From Escherichia coli (GTDB taxonomy: Bacteria; Pseudomonadota; Gammaproteobacteria; Enterobacterales; Enterobacteriaceae), in assembly GCF_003790525.1 (NCBI RefSeq), contig NZ_CP033635.1: DNA of 64,000 bases; one strand, 5' to 3'. The notes under the pieces were generated by a model. The model ran no database searches. It saw only the letters and a list, made by a program, of their open reading frames with translations, and was not told the origin of the DNA. Below are positions 26,041 to 33,792 of the stretch, one piece after another; the stretch's first letter is position 1; every line of letters starts with the position of its first letter. The position numbers were made by a program, and so were the translations under genes.

Positions 26041-26067
26041 TACTCAGTATGCAGTCTTCATTGTGTA

Positions 26068-27372
26068 TCAGGTCGAAAATAATCCTGGCAGCATCAGACT
26101 AAGCTGCGGGAAATAACAAATAATTGCCATTACTACAAACAATGCCAGAAACATCGGCAGTAATGGTTTTATTGCCCTGTCGATACTGACCTTACCAATG
26201 CTGCAACCAACAAACAGAATGGTGCCAACGGGTGGTGTACAAAGGCCAATGGTCAAGTTGAACACCATAATAATACCGAAGTGGATGGGATCTATTCCCA
26301 GATGCTGAGCGATCGGCAGGAAAATAGGCGTAAATATCAGGATCGCCGGTGTGATATCCATAAAGGTACCGACGATCAACAGAATGATATTGATGATAAA
26401 CAGAATAACCCATTTGTTATCCGAAACACTGGTAATCAGTTCGTTGATCAACTCAGGAACATCAGCATTCGTCATGGCCCATGACATCCCCATCGAGCAG
26501 CCTACCAGTAACAGAACAATTGAACTGGTTACTACCGAATCTAACAGAATATCATTGAGCTTCTTAAAAGTGATTTCCCGGTAAATCATCGCCAGGGCTA
26601 AACTATAAATTACCGCAATTGCCGATGCTTCCGTGGGCGTGAATACCCCTGCGATAATACCGCCAATAATGATAAAAATAAGCATCAGGCTGGGAATTGA
26701 TTCGCGGAATACCTGCAAAAATTGATGAAAATTGATACGTTCGGCCACCGGATAATGGTTACGTCGCGCATAAAGTGCCGCCACAAACATTAAAGCAGCA
26801 GCGGTGAGAATGCCTGGCAAGTATCCGGCTAAGAACAACGCAGCAACAGAAGTCCCGCCACTGGCGAGGGAATAAACAATCAACACATTGCTCGGTGGGA
26901 TCATCAGGCCAATGGGGGCAGAGGCAATATTAACCGCTGCTGAAAACGCCGGATCATAGCCCTCTTTTTCTTGCAGTGGTGACATAATTCCACCTACCGC
27001 GGCGGCTGACGCAACGGCTGAACCTGAAATCGCACCAAACAGCGTATTCGCGAGGATATTACAATGAGCCAGTGAGCCAGGAAGACGCCCAACTAATGCT
27101 TGCGCTAGGTTAACCAGTCGTCTGGCTATACCACCGGTATTCATAATGTTTCCGGCTAACACGAAGAAGGGAATGGCTAATAGCGTAAAGCCATCCAGCC
27201 CCACAGTCATCTTTTGCGAAATCACAGAAATGGCGGCATCGGGTGGTAAGGCAGTAATAATAGATAACAGCGAAGAAAGACCAATCGCAAAAGTAATTGG
27301 CACACCGATTGCCAGCATGACGGCAAAACTGCCAAATAAAATTAAGACGGGGTAGATATATTCAAAGTCCAT
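26068..27372 (-). CDS. TRAP transporter large permease (DctM family)
   Basis: ORF 26068-27414 trimmed to ATG at 27372 (MDFEYIYPVLILFG...); about 434 aa polytopic membrane protein. Confidence 0.85.
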   Translation of the reverse strand: MDFEYIYPVLILFGSFAVMLAIGVPITFAIGLSSLLSIITALPPDAAISVISQKMTVGLDGFTLLAIPFFVLAGNIMNTGGIARRLVNLAQALVGRLPGSLAHCNILANTLFGAISGSAVASAAAVGGIMSPLQEKEGYDPAFSAAVNIASAPIGLMIPPSNVLIVYSLASGGTSVAALFLAGYLPGILTAAALMFVAALYARRNHYPVAERINFHQFLQVFRESIPSLMLIFIIIGGIIAGVFTPTEASAIAVIYSLALAMIYREITFKKLNDILLDSVVTSSIVLLLVGCSMGMSWAMTNADVPELINELITSVSDNKWVILFIINIILLIVGTFMDITPAILIFTPIFLPIAQHLGIDPIHFGIIMVFNLTIGLCTPPVGTILFVGCSIGKVSIDRAIKPLLPMFLALFVVMAIICYFPQLSLMLPGLFST

Positions 27373-27382
27373 ATTTCCCTCG

Positions 27383-27865
27383 TTAATGAAAATTCCGTTT
27401 ACGATAGTTGTCAATAATATTCATTACTGAATACCAGACCAGAATAAGTCCACTGACAGGCATAACCCAATATACTTTATCCATTGGCCATTTTAATACT
27501 GGAGAGATTTGTCCAACATGTTGTGCTTTTTCAACAACAATATTCCCGCCATAGATCATGAAAATAACCGCAAAGACCGTAATAATAATTTGGATAAAAC
27601 TGTCAAGCGTCAGAACAGATGCAGCCGGAAGTTTTTGAGCCAACAAATCAATGGCCAGATGTTTTTTTAACCCCGCAGTATATACACCGCCAAGTAAAAT
27701 CATCCACATAAATAAAATCTGGGTGAACTCATCAAGCACAGTGCTGGGAGCGTTAAAAATAAAACGTGCAATAACTTGCTAGGTTACGCAGAACACCATA
27801 ATGGCGAGAATAATGCAGCAACATCCGGCAAGGATCTTATTAAGAATATGAGTGAGTGTTCGCAT
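27383..27865 (-). pseudogene. TRAP transporter small permease (DctQ family) interrupted by in-frame amber codon
   Basis: Reading frame from ATG at 27865 (MRTLTHILNKILAGCCCIILAIMVFCVT) hits TAG at 27781-27779, then continues in the same frame (QVIARFIFNAPSTVLDEFTQILFMWMILLGG...) to stop at 27383; full length would be 160 aa, typical for DctQ. Confidence 0.7.
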
Positions 27866-31000: not shown

Positions 31001-32469
31001 TTCTGCTCATCCGATAATAATTGGCTGATGGTGGCCTTGATGCCTTTGTTTTTTATATTCGCAAAGGCGATTTTTATTTCATTTATAAATGGCTGATGGT
31101 TGCTTAAATCACCAAATATGGCGCTAAGGTGCAGTAATGCGAGCGCCTGTTGCCATGCGTCTTGTTGTTCCTTTATTAGCGCCTGAAATTGGTCATTCAT
31201 TGGATCAGCGGCAGACTGGCTTTTCTCAACAGCATCAATGACATAATGCAACCAACCAGCAATGAGCAGTGACAGAACAGCATTGTTTTGCTTTTGCTGA
31301 TGCAATTTCAGCCAGGGCGTCAGCGCTCGCTGGGGAAGCTTTTGTGAACCGTCCATGGCTATTTGCCCGGTACGGTGTGCAACGTTACGGTTGCTAAAGC
31401 GTTCAATTAACAGGTCGGCGTATTCCTGGATGTTGATATTTAAGTCTGGATTAAGTGTTCGGGCTTGTTCATTAATCATCAGTTGGTGGGTAATGGAACG
31501 AAAATTAGCGTCTTCCATGCATTGCCAGATAAACTCATAGCCTGCCAGCGAGCCGTTATAAGCCAGAAATGAATGGCTACCATTTAACATGCGTAACTTC
31601 ATCTCTTCATAAGGCTGAACATTGCTGACAAACATCGCGCCGGCTTTATCCCATTGTGGTCGTCCGCGCACAAAATTATCTTCGATCACCCACTGACGAA
31701 ATGATTCGCAGACGATCCCGCAGGGATCGGCATAACCGGTTTTCGTTTCCAGTAAGGCGAATTGCGATTCAGTCATTGCCGGAACAATGCGATCTACCAT
31801 CGTGCCTGGAAATGAGACATTTTCTTCGATCCACTGAGCCAGGGGCTGGTCCAGTTGTCGGGCAAAACCGAGAACGGCATTGCGCGTCAGATGCCCATTG
31901 TCTGGCAAGTTGTCACAGGAGAGCACACTAAAAGCGGCGAGTCCTGTCGCTTTACGTTGTTGCAAAGCACAGACGATCACGCCAATAGCTGACAGAGGCG
32001 CATCCGGGTTTTGTAGATCGTGTTGGATTAATCCATTGGTGAGATCAAGTGAACGTGTTTGCGGATCGAGGCAATAACCTTTCTCGGTGATGGTTAATGA
32101 AACGATTTTTACCTGAGGTTCAGCCAGTTTATGGATTGCTGCGGCAATGCCATCTCTGGGGGTATGAATACCGCCAGCCACCGAACGCACAAGGCGTGAG
32201 GTAGATTGCGATGCAGATGTTTCCACAACCGAAAACAGCCCATTTTGCGCATTTAAGTTTTCGATCAGTTGAGCATCACCAAACAGGTTGATCTCAAAGA
32301 TCCCCCAGCGGGTGTCCGAAAGTTGATTAGTGAGATCCGTGTAGACAGCCTGGTGTCCGCGATGAAAAGCGCCAAAACCAATATGGACAATATCTGCCTG
32401 TAACCCGTCCCGAGGCCAGGTGGTTACCTGATCATAGTGGGCGGCAGCGATACTTTCGTTCCCTGACAT
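30997..32469 (-). CDS. mannitol dehydrogenase family oxidoreductase (mannonate/fructuronate oxidoreductase-like)
   Basis: ORF 30997-32505 trimmed to ATG at 32469 preceded by AGGAG; about 490 aa; 4 nt overlap with downstream dehydrogenase. Confidence 0.8.
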   Translation of the reverse strand: MSGNESIAAAHYDQVTTWPRDGLQADIVHIGFGAFHRGHQAVYTDLTNQLSDTRWGIFEINLFGDAQLIENLNAQNGLFSVVETSASQSTSRLVRSVAGGIHTPRDGIAAAIHKLAEPQVKIVSLTITEKGYCLDPQTRSLDLTNGLIQHDLQNPDAPLSAIGVIVCALQQRKATGLAAFSVLSCDNLPDNGHLTRNAVLGFARQLDQPLAQWIEENVSFPGTMVDRIVPAMTESQFALLETKTGYADPCGIVCESFRQWVIEDNFVRGRPQWDKAGAMFVSNVQPYEEMKLRMLNGSHSFLAYNGSLAGYEFIWQCMEDANFRSITHQLMINEQARTLNPDLNINIQEYADLLIERFSNRNVAHRTGQIAMDGSQKLPQRALTPWLKLHQQKQNNAVLSLLIAGWLHYVIDAVEKSQSAADPMNDQFQALIKEQQDAWQQALALLHLSAIFGDLSNHQPFINEIKIAFANIKNKGIKATISQLLSDEQK

Positions 32470-32791
32470 TATGCTCTTACTCCTGGTGGCTTGTGTGTAT
32501 ACCAATTTACATAATTCACTAGACCAAAAACAGAGAGATGCATCACGCTTGCAGAGAAAGGTAAAAGTACGAAACAGAACAACAAGGCGTTATTTATATC
32601 TGTATCAATGAGTTATATGAATAAAATGAAAGGAAAGTTTTTTAGAGGTCAGTTTTTGGGATAATTGCCGCTAATCTAAGATATCTGATGATAGTCGATT
32701 TATTAGACCAATTGAAAAGAGAGCGTGTACCAGTGGAGGGCGGAAGGCAGAGCCGGCGTTATTTTTCCCGCCAGCTCTGGACTAATGAAGG

Positions 32792-33541
32792 TTAACGAGC
32801 GAAGAAAAAGTCATCAAAATCGCTGATGGAAGCGTCTTGTTTGAAGATTTTGATCAGTTCATTTTTGCTGTTTTCCAGATGTCTCCAGGATGCTTCCCTG
32901 GCGAGCTCTGAATCTTTCTGTTGTAGCGCAAGGAAAATAGCCCGGTGATCTTCCAGCCATTGCAGACGCAAATGCTTTTCATGCAGGTACTTGTAGTTAA
33001 GTTTCTTCCAGCGGGGGTTTTCTGTACGAACTGCCCGCCATAATTCAGCAGCTTGTTTGATGAGTACCCGATTTTGCGTCGCTTCGGCAATAATGCTATG
33101 AAATCGGTGATCCAGGTCTTCAAATTTATCACTTTCCGCAGCGATAGCGTTTTCCTGCAATCTAATGATTTTCTTTAACTCTTGTAACTCGTTAAAGCTA
33201 ATCTGGCTGGCTGCAAAACCAGTAATATTGCTCTCAATCACCTGACGCGCCTGCAACAGTTCAAACGGGCCAATTTCTGAATAGGGCATTAATGATTTCT
33301 GGTTGAGCTTATCGGTGGAGTCGACAAAGAAAATCCCTGACCCTTGCTTCACATTCAATACGCCTTTCAGTTCCAGCATAATGATGGCTTCACGAATGGT
33401 AGTTCGGCTGGTATTAAACCGCTCGCTCAGTTCACGTTCTGAAGGTAAGCGTTCTCCGGCCTTAAATACGCCTGAATACAGCAGCTCTTCAATCTGTAGA
33501 CCAATATCGTAATAGCGGCGCTTTGTAATAACCTGTTCCAT
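32792..33541 (-). CDS. GntR family transcriptional regulator (FadR/FCD subfamily)
   Basis: 249 aa; N-terminal winged HTH (LPSERELSERFNTSRTTIREAIIMLELKGVL) plus C-terminal FCD-like helical domain. Confidence 0.85.
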   Translation of the reverse strand: MEQVITKRRYYDIGLQIEELLYSGVFKAGERLPSERELSERFNTSRTTIREAIIMLELKGVLNVKQGSGIFFVDSTDKLNQKSLMPYSEIGPFELLQARQVIESNITGFAASQISFNELQELKKIIRLQENAIAAESDKFEDLDHRFHSIIAEATQNRVLIKQAAELWRAVRTENPRWKKLNYKYLHEKHLRLQWLEDHRAIFLALQQKDSELAREASWRHLENSKNELIKIFKQDASISDFDDFFFAR

Positions 33542-33792
33542 ACCTTGCCTTACTGTGGGTGTCCTCGGATAGCCGATCGTCGTGCAATATGATTTGAACG
33601 TTGCTGATCGGCATAAATAGTAGCGGCAGTTGCCACGATACCGCCAGCCTTAAATGTGCTTGCCCAAGTCGGGCAGTGAAAAACCTCACCAGGGTATTTC
33701 GCCACCGTTCATCAACATCACTTCATTTCCGCGCGTGATACAGCGTATAATCCCCGGCCTTTGATTATTTTTTTATCATTTCTGGAAGCAAA

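What the first reader, a model, noticed from the sequence alone, without database searches (positions are those of the whole stretch)
26041..33792. TRAP-transporter and sugar-acid dehydrogenase cluster with GntR regulator between ftsP and ygiQ
In the K-12 arrangement as I recall it, ftsP and ygiQ are adjacent. Here seven co-directional minus-strand genes lie between them: a GntR/FCD regulator, a mannitol-dehydrogenase-family oxidoreductase, a Zn-dependent polyol dehydrogenase (GHEICAE), an Ldh_2 family reductase, and dctP, dctQ and dctM. The Ldh_2 plus TRAP pairing mirrors yiaK-yiaMNO (2,3-diketo-L-gulonate uptake and reduction), but the two extra dehydrogenases and the GntR regulator indicate a different, unassigned sugar-acid or polyol substrate. 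No integrase, transposase or flanking repeats are seen, so it looks like an old indel rather than a recent mobile element.
Basis: partly seen in the sequence, partly recalled or inferred. Interest (0 to 1): 0.6.

Follow-up and report, generated by a model that had tools for sequence, protein, structure and literature searches.

The report
B2 E. coli glucuronate-TRAP plus oxidoreductase operon
A real 7.7-kb accessory operon of phylogroup-B2-type E. coli that joins a glucuronate-type uptake system to three sugar-acid oxidoreductases which, in other bacteria, sit beside the enzymes that break down the red-seaweed sugar 3,6-anhydro-L-galactose; it is catalogued but biochemically uncharacterised, and its transporter is broken by a stop codon in this strain.

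Summary
Seven co-directional minus-strand genes (gntR, mannitol-DH-family, Zn-ADH, Ldh_2, dctP, dctQ, dctM) fill window 25998-33745 between ftsP and ygiQ. About 1,200 of 5,426 complete E. coli genomes carry them; K-12 has a 63-bp filler instead.

- The locus is already catalogued as "GR 21 ygiQ..ftsP" in B2 ExPEC, with in-silico annotation only.
- DctP is 83% identical to the Salmonella SBP at the same junction, where the D-glucuronate-binding STM3169 lies. All 7 reported ligand residues are kept.
- The Ldh_2 protein is AllD-like (40%), not YiaK-like (27%). The Zn-ADH is 56% identical to L-galactonate 5-dehydrogenase LgoD. The mannitol-DH protein is 49% identical to UxuB and YdfI.

New here: the regulator and the three oxidoreductases form a conserved module. 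In 11 of 11 other contexts examined it lies beside 3,6-anhydro-L-galactonate cycloisomerase, KduI, KdgK, Eda or KdgT. My best model is that it inverts C5 of L-configured (2-keto-3-deoxy)hexonates to feed KDG, a step the literature calls unresolved. The true substrate in E. coli and the role of Ldh_2 remain unproven.

The parts
24585..25997 (+). ftsP, the conserved left flank. Carrier and empty alleles diverge immediately after its TAA stop.
26006..26037 (.). 13-bp-stem hairpin (TTCAATGCCCCAC / GTGGGGCATTGAA) between the convergent stops of ftsP and dctM. Probably a bidirectional terminator. It is specific to the carrier allele; K-12 has a different hairpin in its filler.
   Evidence: sequence; self-complementarity
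26068..27372 (-). dctM, TRAP large permease (434 aa).
   Evidence: TIGR00786 scores 511.7 bits against a cutoff of 268; 88% identical to Salmonella DctM at the same locus
27383..27865 (-). dctQ, TRAP small permease. A pseudogene in this strain: TGG->TAG at window 27779-27781 (W29*; the changed base is 27780).
   Evidence: 38 of 1,207 carriers are identical over the 81 nt centred on the TAG; intact in KC-Dl-1 and Nissle
27907..28890 (-). dctP, TRAP substrate-binding protein, orthologue of the Salmonella SBP at this junction (STM3169, D-glucuronate-binding).
   Evidence: 83.2% identity, same junction, and N35, Q36, E74, R150, R170, N210 and D237 all conserved; the nearest PDB relatives include 4N91, 4MHF and 4N15
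28963..29973 (-). Ldh_2-family oxidoreductase with an AllD-like active site. Not YiaK-like, and below the AllD cutoffs.
29984..31000 (-). Zn-dependent dehydrogenase, 55.6% identical over its full length to K-12 LgoD (L-galactonate 5-dehydrogenase) and 31% to RspB.
30997..32469 (-). Long-chain mannitol-DH-family reductase, 49% identical to UxuB and to YdfI. Its stop overlaps the Zn-ADH start by 4 nt.
32498..32711 (-). Promoter/operator region with three TTGGT(A/C)TA boxes (32498-32505, 32520-32527, 32704-32711) that resemble UxuR/ExuR half-sites. The same layout occurs in K. spallanzanii.
   Evidence: Function is inferred; the generic sigma-70 scan was not enriched.
32792..33541 (-). FadR-subfamily GntR regulator that travels with the oxidoreductase module. 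It is 78-80% identical to the module regulators at other enteric loci, 62% to the Agarivorans copy and 38% to UxuR.
33746..33796 (+). The 51 bp upstream of and into the ygiQ start codon, shared by carrier and empty alleles (right junction).

Best explanation
The block is a chromosomal, vertically inherited accessory operon. It was probably present in the ancestor of Escherichia, is kept mainly in phylogroup-B2-type E. coli, and is replaced by a 63-bp filler in K-12-like lineages. It is a fusion of two modules.

Module 1 is dctPQM, the orthologue of Salmonella stm3169-71, a high-affinity D-glucuronate-type TRAP importer.

Module 2 is a GntR/FadR-type repressor plus three NAD(P)-dependent oxidoreductases: one UxuB/YdfI-like, one LgoD-like and one AllD-like Ldh_2.

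The gene spacing (-4, 10, 72, 41 and 10 nt, with no terminator-like site between Ldh_2 and dctP) suggests a single transcript from the operator-bearing promoter upstream of the first oxidoreductase gene.

Proposed chemistry (inferred, not shown): the LgoD-like Zn-ADH oxidises the C5 hydroxyl of an L-configured hexonate. The candidates are L-KDGal (2-keto-3-deoxy-L-galactonate), L-galactonate and L-gulonate. The UxuB-like enzyme then reduces the 5-keto intermediate to the D-configuration, giving KDG, D-altronate or D-mannonate. These products are finished by KdgK/Eda or UxuA/UxaA encoded elsewhere in the genome. The Ldh_2 enzyme acts on the C2 keto/hydroxy group next to the carboxylate; its exact step is unresolved.

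In this strain the dctQ W29* mutation probably abolishes uptake by the TRAP system, while the enzymes stay intact.
For: Shown:
- Presence/absence and junctions.
- A Salmonella locus with the same flanks but only dctPQM.
- DctP is 83% identical to the Salmonella protein with 7 of 7 ligand residues, and STM3169 binds D-glucuronate with Kd 0.17-0.25 uM (PMC7660916).
- Zn-ADH 55.6% to LgoD and mannitol-DH protein 49% to UxuB and YdfI.
- Ldh_2 has an AllD-type pocket.
- The regulator and three oxidoreductases are a unit. In 11 of 11 other contexts examined they adjoin AHG or KDG-node genes: the cycloisomerase ACI (E = 8e-249 to PDB 5XD7; intact or as a pseudogene in 8 of 11), PfkB/KdgK, Eda, KduI, KduD, KdgT, or an aldehyde dehydrogenase matching 6J75.
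- Purifying selection, with dS similar to the flanks.
- The same seven genes at the same junction in K. spallanzanii, E. albertii and E. whittamii.

Literature:
- The fate of L-KDGal in bacteria 'remains to be elucidated' (PMC11219438).
- Lee et al. 2014 proposed L-KDGal -> L-DDGal -> KDG through a 5-dehydrogenase and a 5-reductase (cited in PMC5943477).

Established knowledge and stereochemical reasoning: LgoD with UxaB, and RspB with YdfI, are known C5-epimerising enzyme pairs. L-KDGal shares its C4-C6 configuration with L-galactonate.
Against: - No enzyme in the block can obviously act on D-glucuronate itself. There is no isomerase and no aldo-keto reductase or other known uronate reductase.
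- No cycloisomerase or remnant of one is present in the window, so the source of an L-configured substrate in E. coli is unknown.
- The TRAP systems that natively accompany the module elsewhere belong to a different SBP lineage, with 30-32% identity and the glucuronate-specific residues replaced. The coupling in Escherichia could therefore be secondary, or even fortuitous.
- Three oxidoreductases are more than a simple C5 inversion needs.
- K-12- and W-type E. coli can use L-KDGal without this module (PMC11219438).
- Co-transcription and regulator binding are inferred from sequence only.
- STM3169 was tested against only six ligands.
Confidence: 0.5

Rival explanations
1. An isomerase-independent D-glucuronate route. 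TRAP imports D-glucuronate, one enzyme reduces C1 to give L-gulonate, the LgoD-like Zn-ADH makes D-fructuronate, and the UxuB-like enzyme makes D-mannonate for UxuA.
For: DctP is a glucuronate-type SBP. LgoD is reported to act on L-gulonate as well as L-galactonate (Kuivanen & Richard 2014, title cited in PMC12928451). The mannitol-DH protein is 49% identical to UxuB and YdfI. The regulator is UxuR/ExuR-like, and similar boxes lie upstream of Salmonella dctP. All seven genes probably form one operon.
Against: The only enzyme left for the uronate reduction is Ldh_2, and every characterised member of that family acts on the carbon next to the carboxylate (AllD, YiaK, ComC, DpkA; PMC3527362). E. 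coli already has UxaC. In other bacteria the three enzymes travel with the cycloisomerase, KduI and KdgT, not with uxaC or uxuA.
Confidence: 0.2
2. A fortuitous juxtaposition. The regulator-oxidoreductase module landed next to an older glucuronate TRAP operon, and the two parts serve unrelated substrates. The enzyme module may be cryptic in E. coli.
For: In Salmonella the two parts are separate: TRAP at ftsP/ygiQ, and the module at speA-speB with a decayed cycloisomerase. The SBP lineage differs from the module's native partners. This strain has lost dctQ while the enzymes are intact. Cryptic L-gulonate and L-idonate pathways are known in enterics (Wichelecki 2014, from memory).
Against: The arrangement is conserved with all genes intact in Escherichia species and K. 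spallanzanii. dN/dS is 0.01-0.18 for every gene. Only 72 nt without a terminator-like site separate Ldh_2 from dctP. About 97% of carriers lack the stop-carrying dctQ allele.
Confidence: 0.2
3. One reading: a yiaK-S-like system for 2,3-diketo-L-gulonate or a close ascorbate-derived analogue.
For: Same family composition on paper, Ldh_2 plus TRAP. A YiaL-like DUF386 gene accompanies the module in other species.
Against: Ldh_2 is 27% identical to YiaK and differs at the positions that separate AllD from YiaK. DctP is 27% identical to YiaO. The YiaK, YiaM and YiaN equivalog models score 126/316, 33/260 and 289/800 bits against their cutoffs. No lyxK or sgbHUE genes are present.
Confidence: 0.04
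4. The Ldh_2 protein is a second ureidoglycolate dehydrogenase, and the block serves ureide/nitrogen metabolism.
For: Closest characterised relative is AllD (40%). Eight of nine AllD active-site residues are identical and S140 is T. Some databases name it ureidoglycolate dehydrogenase.
Against: It is below both curated AllD cutoffs (340.7 vs 356; 318.3 vs 496.2). It is never next to all genes, and always next to sugar-acid genes.
Confidence: 0.03

Closest known systems
Salmonella Typhimurium STM3169-STM3171 TRAP transporter (Herman et al. 2020, PMC7660916)
   Same: Same chromosomal junction (ygiQ | dctPQM | ftsP-plsC-parC). DctP is 83% and DctM 88% identical to the Salmonella proteins there. 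All seven residues modelled as D-glucuronate contacts are identical. TTGGT(A/C)T boxes lie upstream.
   Different: Salmonella has only the three transporter genes at this site. E. coli adds a regulator and three oxidoreductases upstream, apparently in the same transcription unit. In this window dctQ is interrupted.
E. coli L-galactonate (LgoD/YjjN then UxaB) and L-gulonate (RspB then YdfI) routes: C5 epimerisation of L-hexonates by oxidation and re-reduction
   Same: The Zn-ADH is 55.6% identical to LgoD, and the mannitol-DH-family enzyme is 49% identical to YdfI and UxuB. A GntR-family regulator is present.
   Different: A third enzyme (Ldh_2) is always present. The transporter is a TRAP system, not the LgoT or YdfJ symporters. 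No dehydratase is encoded in cis. RspB is only 31% identical.
3,6-anhydro-L-galactose (AHG) catabolic clusters of agarolytic bacteria (Vibrio sp. EJY3 AHGD/ACI, Yun 2015; L-KDGal 5-dehydrogenase and L-DDGal 5-reductase, Lee 2014)
   Same: Orthologues of the regulator and all three oxidoreductases (60-78% identity) lie directly beside ACI, KdgK and Eda in Vibrio agarivorans and Agarivorans. They lie beside ACI and a sugar-acid MFS transporter in Klebsiella, Budvicia and one E. coli.
   Different: The window has no ACI, AHG dehydrogenase, agarase, KdgK or Eda in cis. Its transporter is glucuronate-type. None of the papers I read assigns these three protein families to the L-KDGal -> KDG step.
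yiaKLMNO-lyxK-sgbHUE (2,3-diketo-L-gulonate)
   Same: An Ldh_2 enzyme plus a TRAP transporter; a DUF386/YiaL-like gene accompanies the module in other taxa.
   Different: Only 27% (YiaK), 27% (YiaO) and 37% (YiaN) identity; all equivalog models are below cutoff; no downstream kinase, decarboxylase or epimerases.
AllD, (S)-ureidoglycolate dehydrogenase
   Same: Best-scoring characterised homologue of the Ldh_2 protein. The active-site residues are conserved apart from S140T.
   Different: 40% identity, below the curated cutoffs, and the genomic context is sugar-acid catabolism, not allantoin catabolism.

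Membership tests
TRAP transporter (DctPQM type) | Three components: a periplasmic DctP-family SBP, a small DctQ permease and a large DctM permease | tested here: met
   TIGR00787 scores 220 (cutoff 175), NF037995 239 (cutoff 50) and TIGR00786 512 (cutoff 268). DctQ is recognisable but carries W29* in this strain.
TRAP transporter (DctPQM type) | Conserved SBP arginine that binds the ligand carboxylate | tested here: met
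   R170 (and R150) are present; the residue definition comes from PMC7660916.
STM3169-type D-glucuronate TRAP | Orthology: same locus and high identity | tested here: met
   83.2% identity over 327 aa, and the Salmonella gene lies between ygiQ and ftsP.
STM3169-type D-glucuronate TRAP | Ligand-contact residues N35, Q36, E74, R150, R170, N210, D237 | tested here: met
   7 of 7 are identical in the window, Salmonella and K. spallanzanii. They are replaced in the SBPs that accompany the module in Vibrio nigripulchritudo, Rhodobacteraceae and Marinomonas.
STM3169-type D-glucuronate TRAP | Sub-micromolar binding of D-glucuronate | not testable with these tools
   Requires ITC, fluorescence or DSF on purified E. 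coli DctP.
yiaK-S 2,3-diketo-L-gulonate system | YiaK-type reductase and YiaMNO-type transporter at equivalog level | tested here: not met
   NF009750 scores 125.8 (cutoff 316), NF011634 289 (cutoff 800) and NF007374 33 (cutoff 260). Identity is 27% to YiaK and 27% to YiaO.
yiaK-S 2,3-diketo-L-gulonate system | Downstream lyxK and sgbH/U/E genes | tested here: not met
   Absent from the block and its flanks.
AllD ureidoglycolate dehydrogenase | Score above the curated equivalog cutoffs | tested here: not met
   340.7 against 356 (NF011599) and 318.3 against 496.2 (TIGR03175).
AllD ureidoglycolate dehydrogenase | AllD-specific substrate residues R48, S140, D141, plus H44 and H116 | tested here: inconclusive
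   R48, D141, H44, H116, M251 and R259 are conserved, and S140 is T in all module members. The pocket is AllD-like, but the context is never allantoin genes.
UxuB fructuronate reductase | Score above the NF011611 cutoff | tested here: not met
   506.2 against 603; 48.7% identity to K-12 UxuB and 49.4% to YdfI.
LgoD (YjjN) L-galactonate 5-dehydrogenase | Close full-length homology; activity on L-galactonate or L-gulonate | tested here: inconclusive
   55.6% identity over 338 aa, similar to its identity with distant module Zn-ADHs (53-61%). No LgoD-specific model appeared among the 25 NCBIfam matches shown. Activity is not testable here.
UxuR/ExuR hexuronate repressors | Equivalog-level score | tested here: not met
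   192.6 against 442 and 184.2 against 396; 38% identity to UxuR. Operator-like TTGGTATA boxes are similar.
AHG (3,6-anhydro-L-galactose) catabolic cluster | AHG dehydrogenase and 3,6-anhydro-L-galactonate cycloisomerase present | tested here: not met
   tblastn with three ACI proteins finds nothing in the window (best E = 0.14). No aldehyde dehydrogenase is present in the block.
Mobile genomic island | Integrase or transposase, tRNA or attachment site, flanking direct repeats | tested here: not met
   None is annotated. The junctions lack repeats. dS matches the flanking core genes. GC is lower than in the flanks.

The most novel reading that the evidence does not exclude
The GntR-regulated set of three oxidoreductases (LgoD-like Zn-ADH, UxuB-like reductase, AllD-like Ldh_2, often with a DUF386 anomerase-like protein) is the missing bacterial route from L-KDGal to KDG. 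That route would complete 3,6-anhydro-L-galactose catabolism in Vibrio-type agarolytic bacteria and in the rare enterics that carry the cycloisomerase. It would include a new job for an Ldh_2 enzyme at C2 of a 2-keto-3-deoxy sugar acid. B2 E. coli would have re-wired this module to a glucuronate-type TRAP importer to scavenge a host- or diet-derived uronate derivative, for example 5-keto-4-deoxyuronate from glycosaminoglycan or pectin breakdown, whose aldehyde-reduced form is L-KDGal.
Probability: 0.3. Interest if true: 0.7.

Novelty: new variant of a known kind. Interest (0 to 1): 0.5.

Why it matters
**Link to pathogens.** The locus marks the B2 lineages that cause most extraintestinal E. 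coli disease, including UTI89, 536, CFT073 and ST131, and also Nissle 1917. Disrupting stm3169, the Salmonella gene for the corresponding binding protein, reduces survival in macrophages. The enzymes attached to the transporter in E. coli may therefore define a niche-specific carbon source.

**Link to an open question.** The comparative evidence nominates three specific, easily expressed proteins for a step that the discoverers of the AHG pathway describe as unresolved, namely how L-KDGal enters central metabolism. That question can now be tested directly in vitro and by gene deletion.

**Unexpected relatives in enterics.** Orthologues (about 78% identical) of a cycloisomerase described so far in agar-degrading bacteria occur in Klebsiella, Budvicia and occasional E. 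coli, and as a pseudogene in Salmonella.

Tried and rejected
1. My first guess was that the Zn-ADH is an RspB-type L-gulonate 5-dehydrogenase, because its best PDB hit is 4ILK and its best NCBIfam model is PRK10083. Direct comparison shows 31% identity to RspB and 56% to LgoD, so I rejected it.
2. A yiaK-S relationship is rejected.
3. I searched for a cycloisomerase remnant in the window and in K. spallanzanii and found none. The remnant exists only in the Salmonella speA-speB copy.
4. I tested whether the K-12 63-bp filler is a relic of the cluster. Only chance 9-10-mers match.
5. I looked for deletion scars of the oxidoreductase module in the Salmonella TRAP locus and found none. Whether Salmonella lost the module or Escherichia and Klebsiella gained it is therefore unresolved.
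6. A literature search on the analogous Bacillus yjmC/yjmD pair returned nothing functional.
7. The UPEC omics review PMC8882828 does not mention this TRAP locus.
8. The generic sigma-70 and terminator scans were not enriched over shuffles and were used only to note the absence of a terminator-like site between Ldh_2 and dctP.
9. The genome-contig scan missed Salmonella because it needs exact peptide words. I recovered Salmonella through the protein database instead.
10. I did not use the metagenome scan, because twelve neighbourhood look-ups already gave a consistent picture.

Full report
**1. Observation**

The window holds seven co-directional minus-strand ORFs between ftsP (24585-25997) and ygiQ (33793-36012). 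GC falls from about 0.55 in the flanks to about 0.45 inside the block. The sequence is identical to E. coli SC516 (chicken liver, China). Its RefSeq annotation lists a FadR/GntR regulator, a mannitol dehydrogenase family protein, a zinc-binding alcohol dehydrogenase, an Ldh family oxidoreductase, and the TRAP SBP, small permease and large permease.

Megablast against 5,426 complete E. coli genomes finds the block in about 1,200 (22%). All others have ftsP and ygiQ adjacent. Carriers sampled across the ranking include UTI89, 536, JJ1887, O25b:H4-ST131 and Nissle-type strains. A 2026 comparative paper lists the locus as 'GR 21 ygiQ..ftsP', shared by APEC O1, IMT5155, RS218, IHE3034, 78-Pyelo, CFT073 and LF82 (PMC12928451). 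It is therefore a trait of B2-type lineages.

**2. Anatomy and junctions**

Gene spacing on the minus strand is:
- gntR to mdh: 322 nt
- mdh to Zn-ADH: 4-nt overlap
- Zn-ADH to Ldh_2: 10 nt
- Ldh_2 to dctP: 72 nt
- dctP to dctQ: 41 nt
- dctQ to dctM: 10 nt

No terminator-like site lies between Ldh_2 and dctP. A 13-bp-stem hairpin (26006-26037) separates the convergent ends of ftsP and dctM.

Carrier and empty alleles share the 51 bp before the ygiQ ATG and diverge right after the ftsP stop codon. K-12 has a 63-bp filler with a different hairpin and no similarity to the cluster. The polymorphism is therefore a replacement of 7,748 bp by 63 bp. It lacks repeats, integrase and transposase.

**3.

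dctQ carries TGG->TAG at window 27779-27781 (W29*). The only difference from the Nissle allele in the surrounding 81 nt is at position 27780. RefSeq marks the gene 'internal stop' in SC516 and in CFSAN061771. Only 38 of 1,207 carriers are identical over that 81-nt stretch. The allele is therefore real but confined to a small lineage. Losing the first transmembrane segment of the small permease should disable the transporter in this strain; that is an inference.

**4. The transporter**

DctP and DctM exceed the curated TRAP cutoffs. The nearest solved SBPs include 4N91, 4MHF and 4N15. Herman et al. describe 4N91 and 4MHF as glucuronate or galacturonate binders and used 4N15 as their modelling template (PMC7660916).

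That paper shows that Salmonella STM3169 binds D-glucuronate with a Kd of 0.17-0.25 uM, and it names N35, Q36, E74, R150, R170, N210 and D237 as contacts. The Salmonella SBP is 83% identical to the window's DctP. Its operon lies between ygiQ and ftsP-plsC-parC, the same junction, but with no regulator or enzymes. All seven contact residues are identical in E. coli, Salmonella and K. spallanzanii. The transporter half of the 'unassigned' cluster therefore has a well-supported ligand class by orthology. STM3169 was tested against only six compounds.

**5. The enzymes and the regulator**

- **Ldh_2.** NCBIfam and the PDB place it nearest AllD (340.7 bits against a cutoff of 356; PDB 4H8A at 263 bits) and far from YiaK (126 bits; PDB 81 bits).
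- **Zn-ADH.** It is 55.6% identical to K-12 LgoD, the L-galactonate 5-dehydrogenase, and 31% to RspB.
- **Mannitol-DH-family protein.** It is 49% identical to both UxuB and YdfI.
- **Regulator.** It is 38% identical to UxuR.
- **Ldh_2 active site.** Using the residues defined for AllD (PMC3527362), the protein and all its relatives in the other loci keep S43, H44, R48, Y52, H116, D141, M251 and R259, with S140 changed to T. YiaK differs at D141, M251 and R259.

The resemblance to yiaK-yiaMNO is therefore only at family level.

**6. The regulator and the three oxidoreductases are a portable module**

Close homologues of the Ldh_2 protein (53-79% identity) occur in Salmonella, Klebsiella, Enterobacter, Budvicia, and many Vibrio, Agarivorans and Marinomonas species. 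I examined eleven neighbourhoods outside the ftsP/ygiQ site.

| Locus | Organism | Genes around the module |
|---|---|---|
| L086 | Salmonella (speA-speB) | GntR, decayed cycloisomerase, three oxidoreductases, DUF386 |
| L089 | E. coli (gyrB-yidB) | GntR, cycloisomerase, three oxidoreductases, sugar-acid MFS |
| L094 | K. quasipneumoniae | Same layout as L089 |
| L097 | Budvicia | Same layout as L089 |
| L088 | V. agarivorans | Cycloisomerase, Eda, KdgK, divergent to the three genes |
| L091 | Agarivorans | As L088, plus aldehyde DH and agarase-type genes |
| L096 | Marinomonas | Three genes, then an aldehyde DH matching 6J75; PfkB and TRAP nearby |
| L100 | V. nigripulchritudo | Aldehyde DH, GntR, cycloisomerase, three genes, DctQMP |
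| L095 | Rhodobacteraceae | PfkB, GntR, Zn-ADH, Ldh_2, DctQMP, DUF386, KduI (no mdh) |
| L101 | Polycladidibacter | Cycloisomerase-like gene, PfkB, three genes, DctQM, DUF386, KduI |
| L102 | Metagenomic contig | PfkB, Ldh_2, DUF386, mdh, Zn-ADH, KdgT, KduI, KduD |

The MR_MLE protein of V. agarivorans matches the solved 3,6-anhydro-L-galactonate cycloisomerase at E = 8e-249. The enteric versions are 78-80% identical to it.

All 11 contexts contain genes of the AHG -> L-KDGal branch or of the KDG node. The cycloisomerase is present in 8 of them, counting the Salmonella pseudogene. The module regulator in the window is 78-80% identical to those at the other enteric sites and 62% to the Agarivorans one.

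The TRAP systems that natively accompany the module are only 30-32% identical to the window's DctP and have lost N35, Q36 and D237. The Escherichia locus is therefore a chimera of a glucuronate-type TRAP and this module.

**7. What the module probably does**

The literature gives AHG -> 3,6-anhydro-L-galactonate -> L-KDGal as established. The group that discovered the pathway says the onward route 'remains to be elucidated', and suggests conversion to D-KDGal or KDG (PMC11219438). Lee et al. (2014) proposed L-KDGal -> 2,5-diketo-3-deoxy intermediate -> KDG through a 5-dehydrogenase and a 5-reductase in Pseudoalteromonas (cited in PMC5943477).

That is a C5 inversion. It is the same chemistry that LgoD with UxaB, and RspB with YdfI, perform on L-galactonate and L-gulonate (established knowledge). 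L-KDGal keeps the C4-C6 configuration of L-galactonate, and KDG keeps that of D-mannonate (my stereochemical reasoning).

An LgoD-like dehydrogenase paired with a UxuB/YdfI-like reductase, sitting beside the cycloisomerase, KdgK and Eda, is therefore a natural candidate for L-KDGal -> KDG. All characterised Ldh_2 enzymes act at the carbon next to the carboxylate, so this one most likely handles the C2 keto/hydroxy group. The frequent DUF386 partner belongs to a family that includes the N-acetylneuraminate anomerase. This hints that ring-opening of a 2-keto-3-deoxy acid matters, but the Ldh_2 step itself is unresolved.

**8. How this fits E. coli, and what does not fit**

E. coli encodes kdgK, eda, kduID and uxuA/uxaA elsewhere (established knowledge), so products of the module could be consumed. 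The block has no enzyme with an obvious activity on D-glucuronate and no cycloisomerase. The in-vivo substrate that links the transporter and the enzymes is therefore unknown. The options are:
- (a) A uronate derivative carried by the glucuronate-type SBP. For example 5-keto-4-deoxyuronate, whose aldehyde-reduced form is L-KDGal by my reasoning.
- (b) An isomerase-independent glucuronate -> L-gulonate -> fructuronate -> mannonate route. This needs an unprecedented uronate reductase.
- (c) Functional independence of the two halves.

Four points argue against (c):
- The same seven genes lie intact at the same junction in K. spallanzanii, E. albertii and E. whittamii.
- dN/dS is 0.01-0.18 for every gene.
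- The spacer between Ldh_2 and dctP is short.
- About 97% of carriers lack the stop-carrying dctQ allele.

**9. Regulation (inferred)**

Three TTGGT(A/C)TA boxes lie upstream of the first oxidoreductase gene, at window 32498-32505, 32520-32527 and 32704-32711. K. spallanzanii has the same layout. Similar boxes lie upstream of Salmonella dctP, and palindromic TGGnAnACCA versions occur in the other module promoters. From memory, they resemble UxuR/ExuR operators. Both the local GntR and the global hexuronate repressors are candidates to bind them.

**10. Evolution**

dS of the cluster genes against E. whittamii and a divergent 'E. coli' (0.19-0.43) is in the range of ftsP and ygiQ (0.29-0.54). 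The block sits at the same junction in several Escherichia species. The simplest reading is ancestral presence in the genus followed by loss in most E. coli lineages.

Against Salmonella, DctP (83%) and DctM (88%) are more diverged than FtsP, YgiQ and ParC (93-95%). No scars of the enzyme module remain there. Whether Salmonella lost the module or Escherichia and Klebsiella gained it cannot be decided.

**11. Verdict**

The feature is real, chromosomal and old. It is partly known: the locus is catalogued, and the orthologous Salmonella binding protein is characterised. The enzymology is open.

The main added value of this analysis is:
- correcting the yiaK analogy;
- finding the dctQ nonsense allele;
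- showing that the enzyme-regulator module belongs to the L-KDGal/KDG node.

The last point makes an acknowledged open question testable. Interest is moderate (0.5). Novelty: a new variant of a known kind of system.

Noticed in passing
window ~8071-15262: A second strain-variable block lies between ygiN and parE. It holds a MurR/RpiR regulator, a siderophore-type ABC transporter (SBP, two FecCD permeases, ATPase) and a TonB-dependent receptor. It corresponds to 'GR 22 ygiN..parE' of PMC12928451 and, from memory, is probably the fit iron-uptake locus. One permease (window ~11392-12374) is annotated as frameshifted in this strain, so two accessory transporters within 20 kb are inactivated.
   Followed up: partly
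L089:4271-11339 (E. coli GCA_025434615.1); NZ_CP042298.1 3175439-3182506: A paralogous cluster between gyrB and yidB holds GntR, a 3,6-anhydro-L-galactonate cycloisomerase orthologue (78% identical to the Vibrio enzyme), the three oxidoreductases and a galactonate-type MFS symporter. Among 5,426 complete E. coli genomes it occurs only in strain RM9088 (crow). The same layout occurs in K. quasipneumoniae and Budvicia. A seaweed-sugar pathway enzyme in enterics is unexpected.
   Followed up: partly
L086:4463-10541 (Salmonella enterica, between speA and speB): Salmonella carries the regulator, the three oxidoreductases and a DUF386 gene at a different site. The cycloisomerase there has decayed to fragments covering roughly residues 10-136 and 267-361.
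   Followed up: partly
L010 (E. coli SCPM-O-B-8794, contig 6), match at 10001-10918: A second E. coli TRAP system has a DctP 56% identical to the window's. It keeps six of the seven glucuronate-contact residues, with E74 changed to Q. A 152-nt match on a plasmid of strain OHT76-1 may be related.
   Followed up: no
NZ_CP093369.1 (EV36) and NZ_CP103465.1 (ST131 strain 5392): EV36 carries the cluster. From memory it is a K-12/K1 hybrid, so the cluster presumably arrived with DNA from the K1 donor. One ST131 genome matches only 31% of the enzyme region, with only the Ldh_2 gene under the match, so part of the enzyme region is missing there.
   Followed up: no
window ~47199-48083 and ~61727-62485: yghX is annotated as frameshifted. 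A hypothetical gene next to yghS and an 'LPS biosynthesis protein' has an internal stop.
   Followed up: no
L007 and L006 versus the window: Within Escherichia the three oxidoreductases are less constrained than the transporter. dN/dS is 0.07-0.17 for the enzymes and 0.01-0.03 for the transporter, and the mannitol-DH protein is only 93% identical where the flanking proteins are 99-100%.
   Followed up: partly
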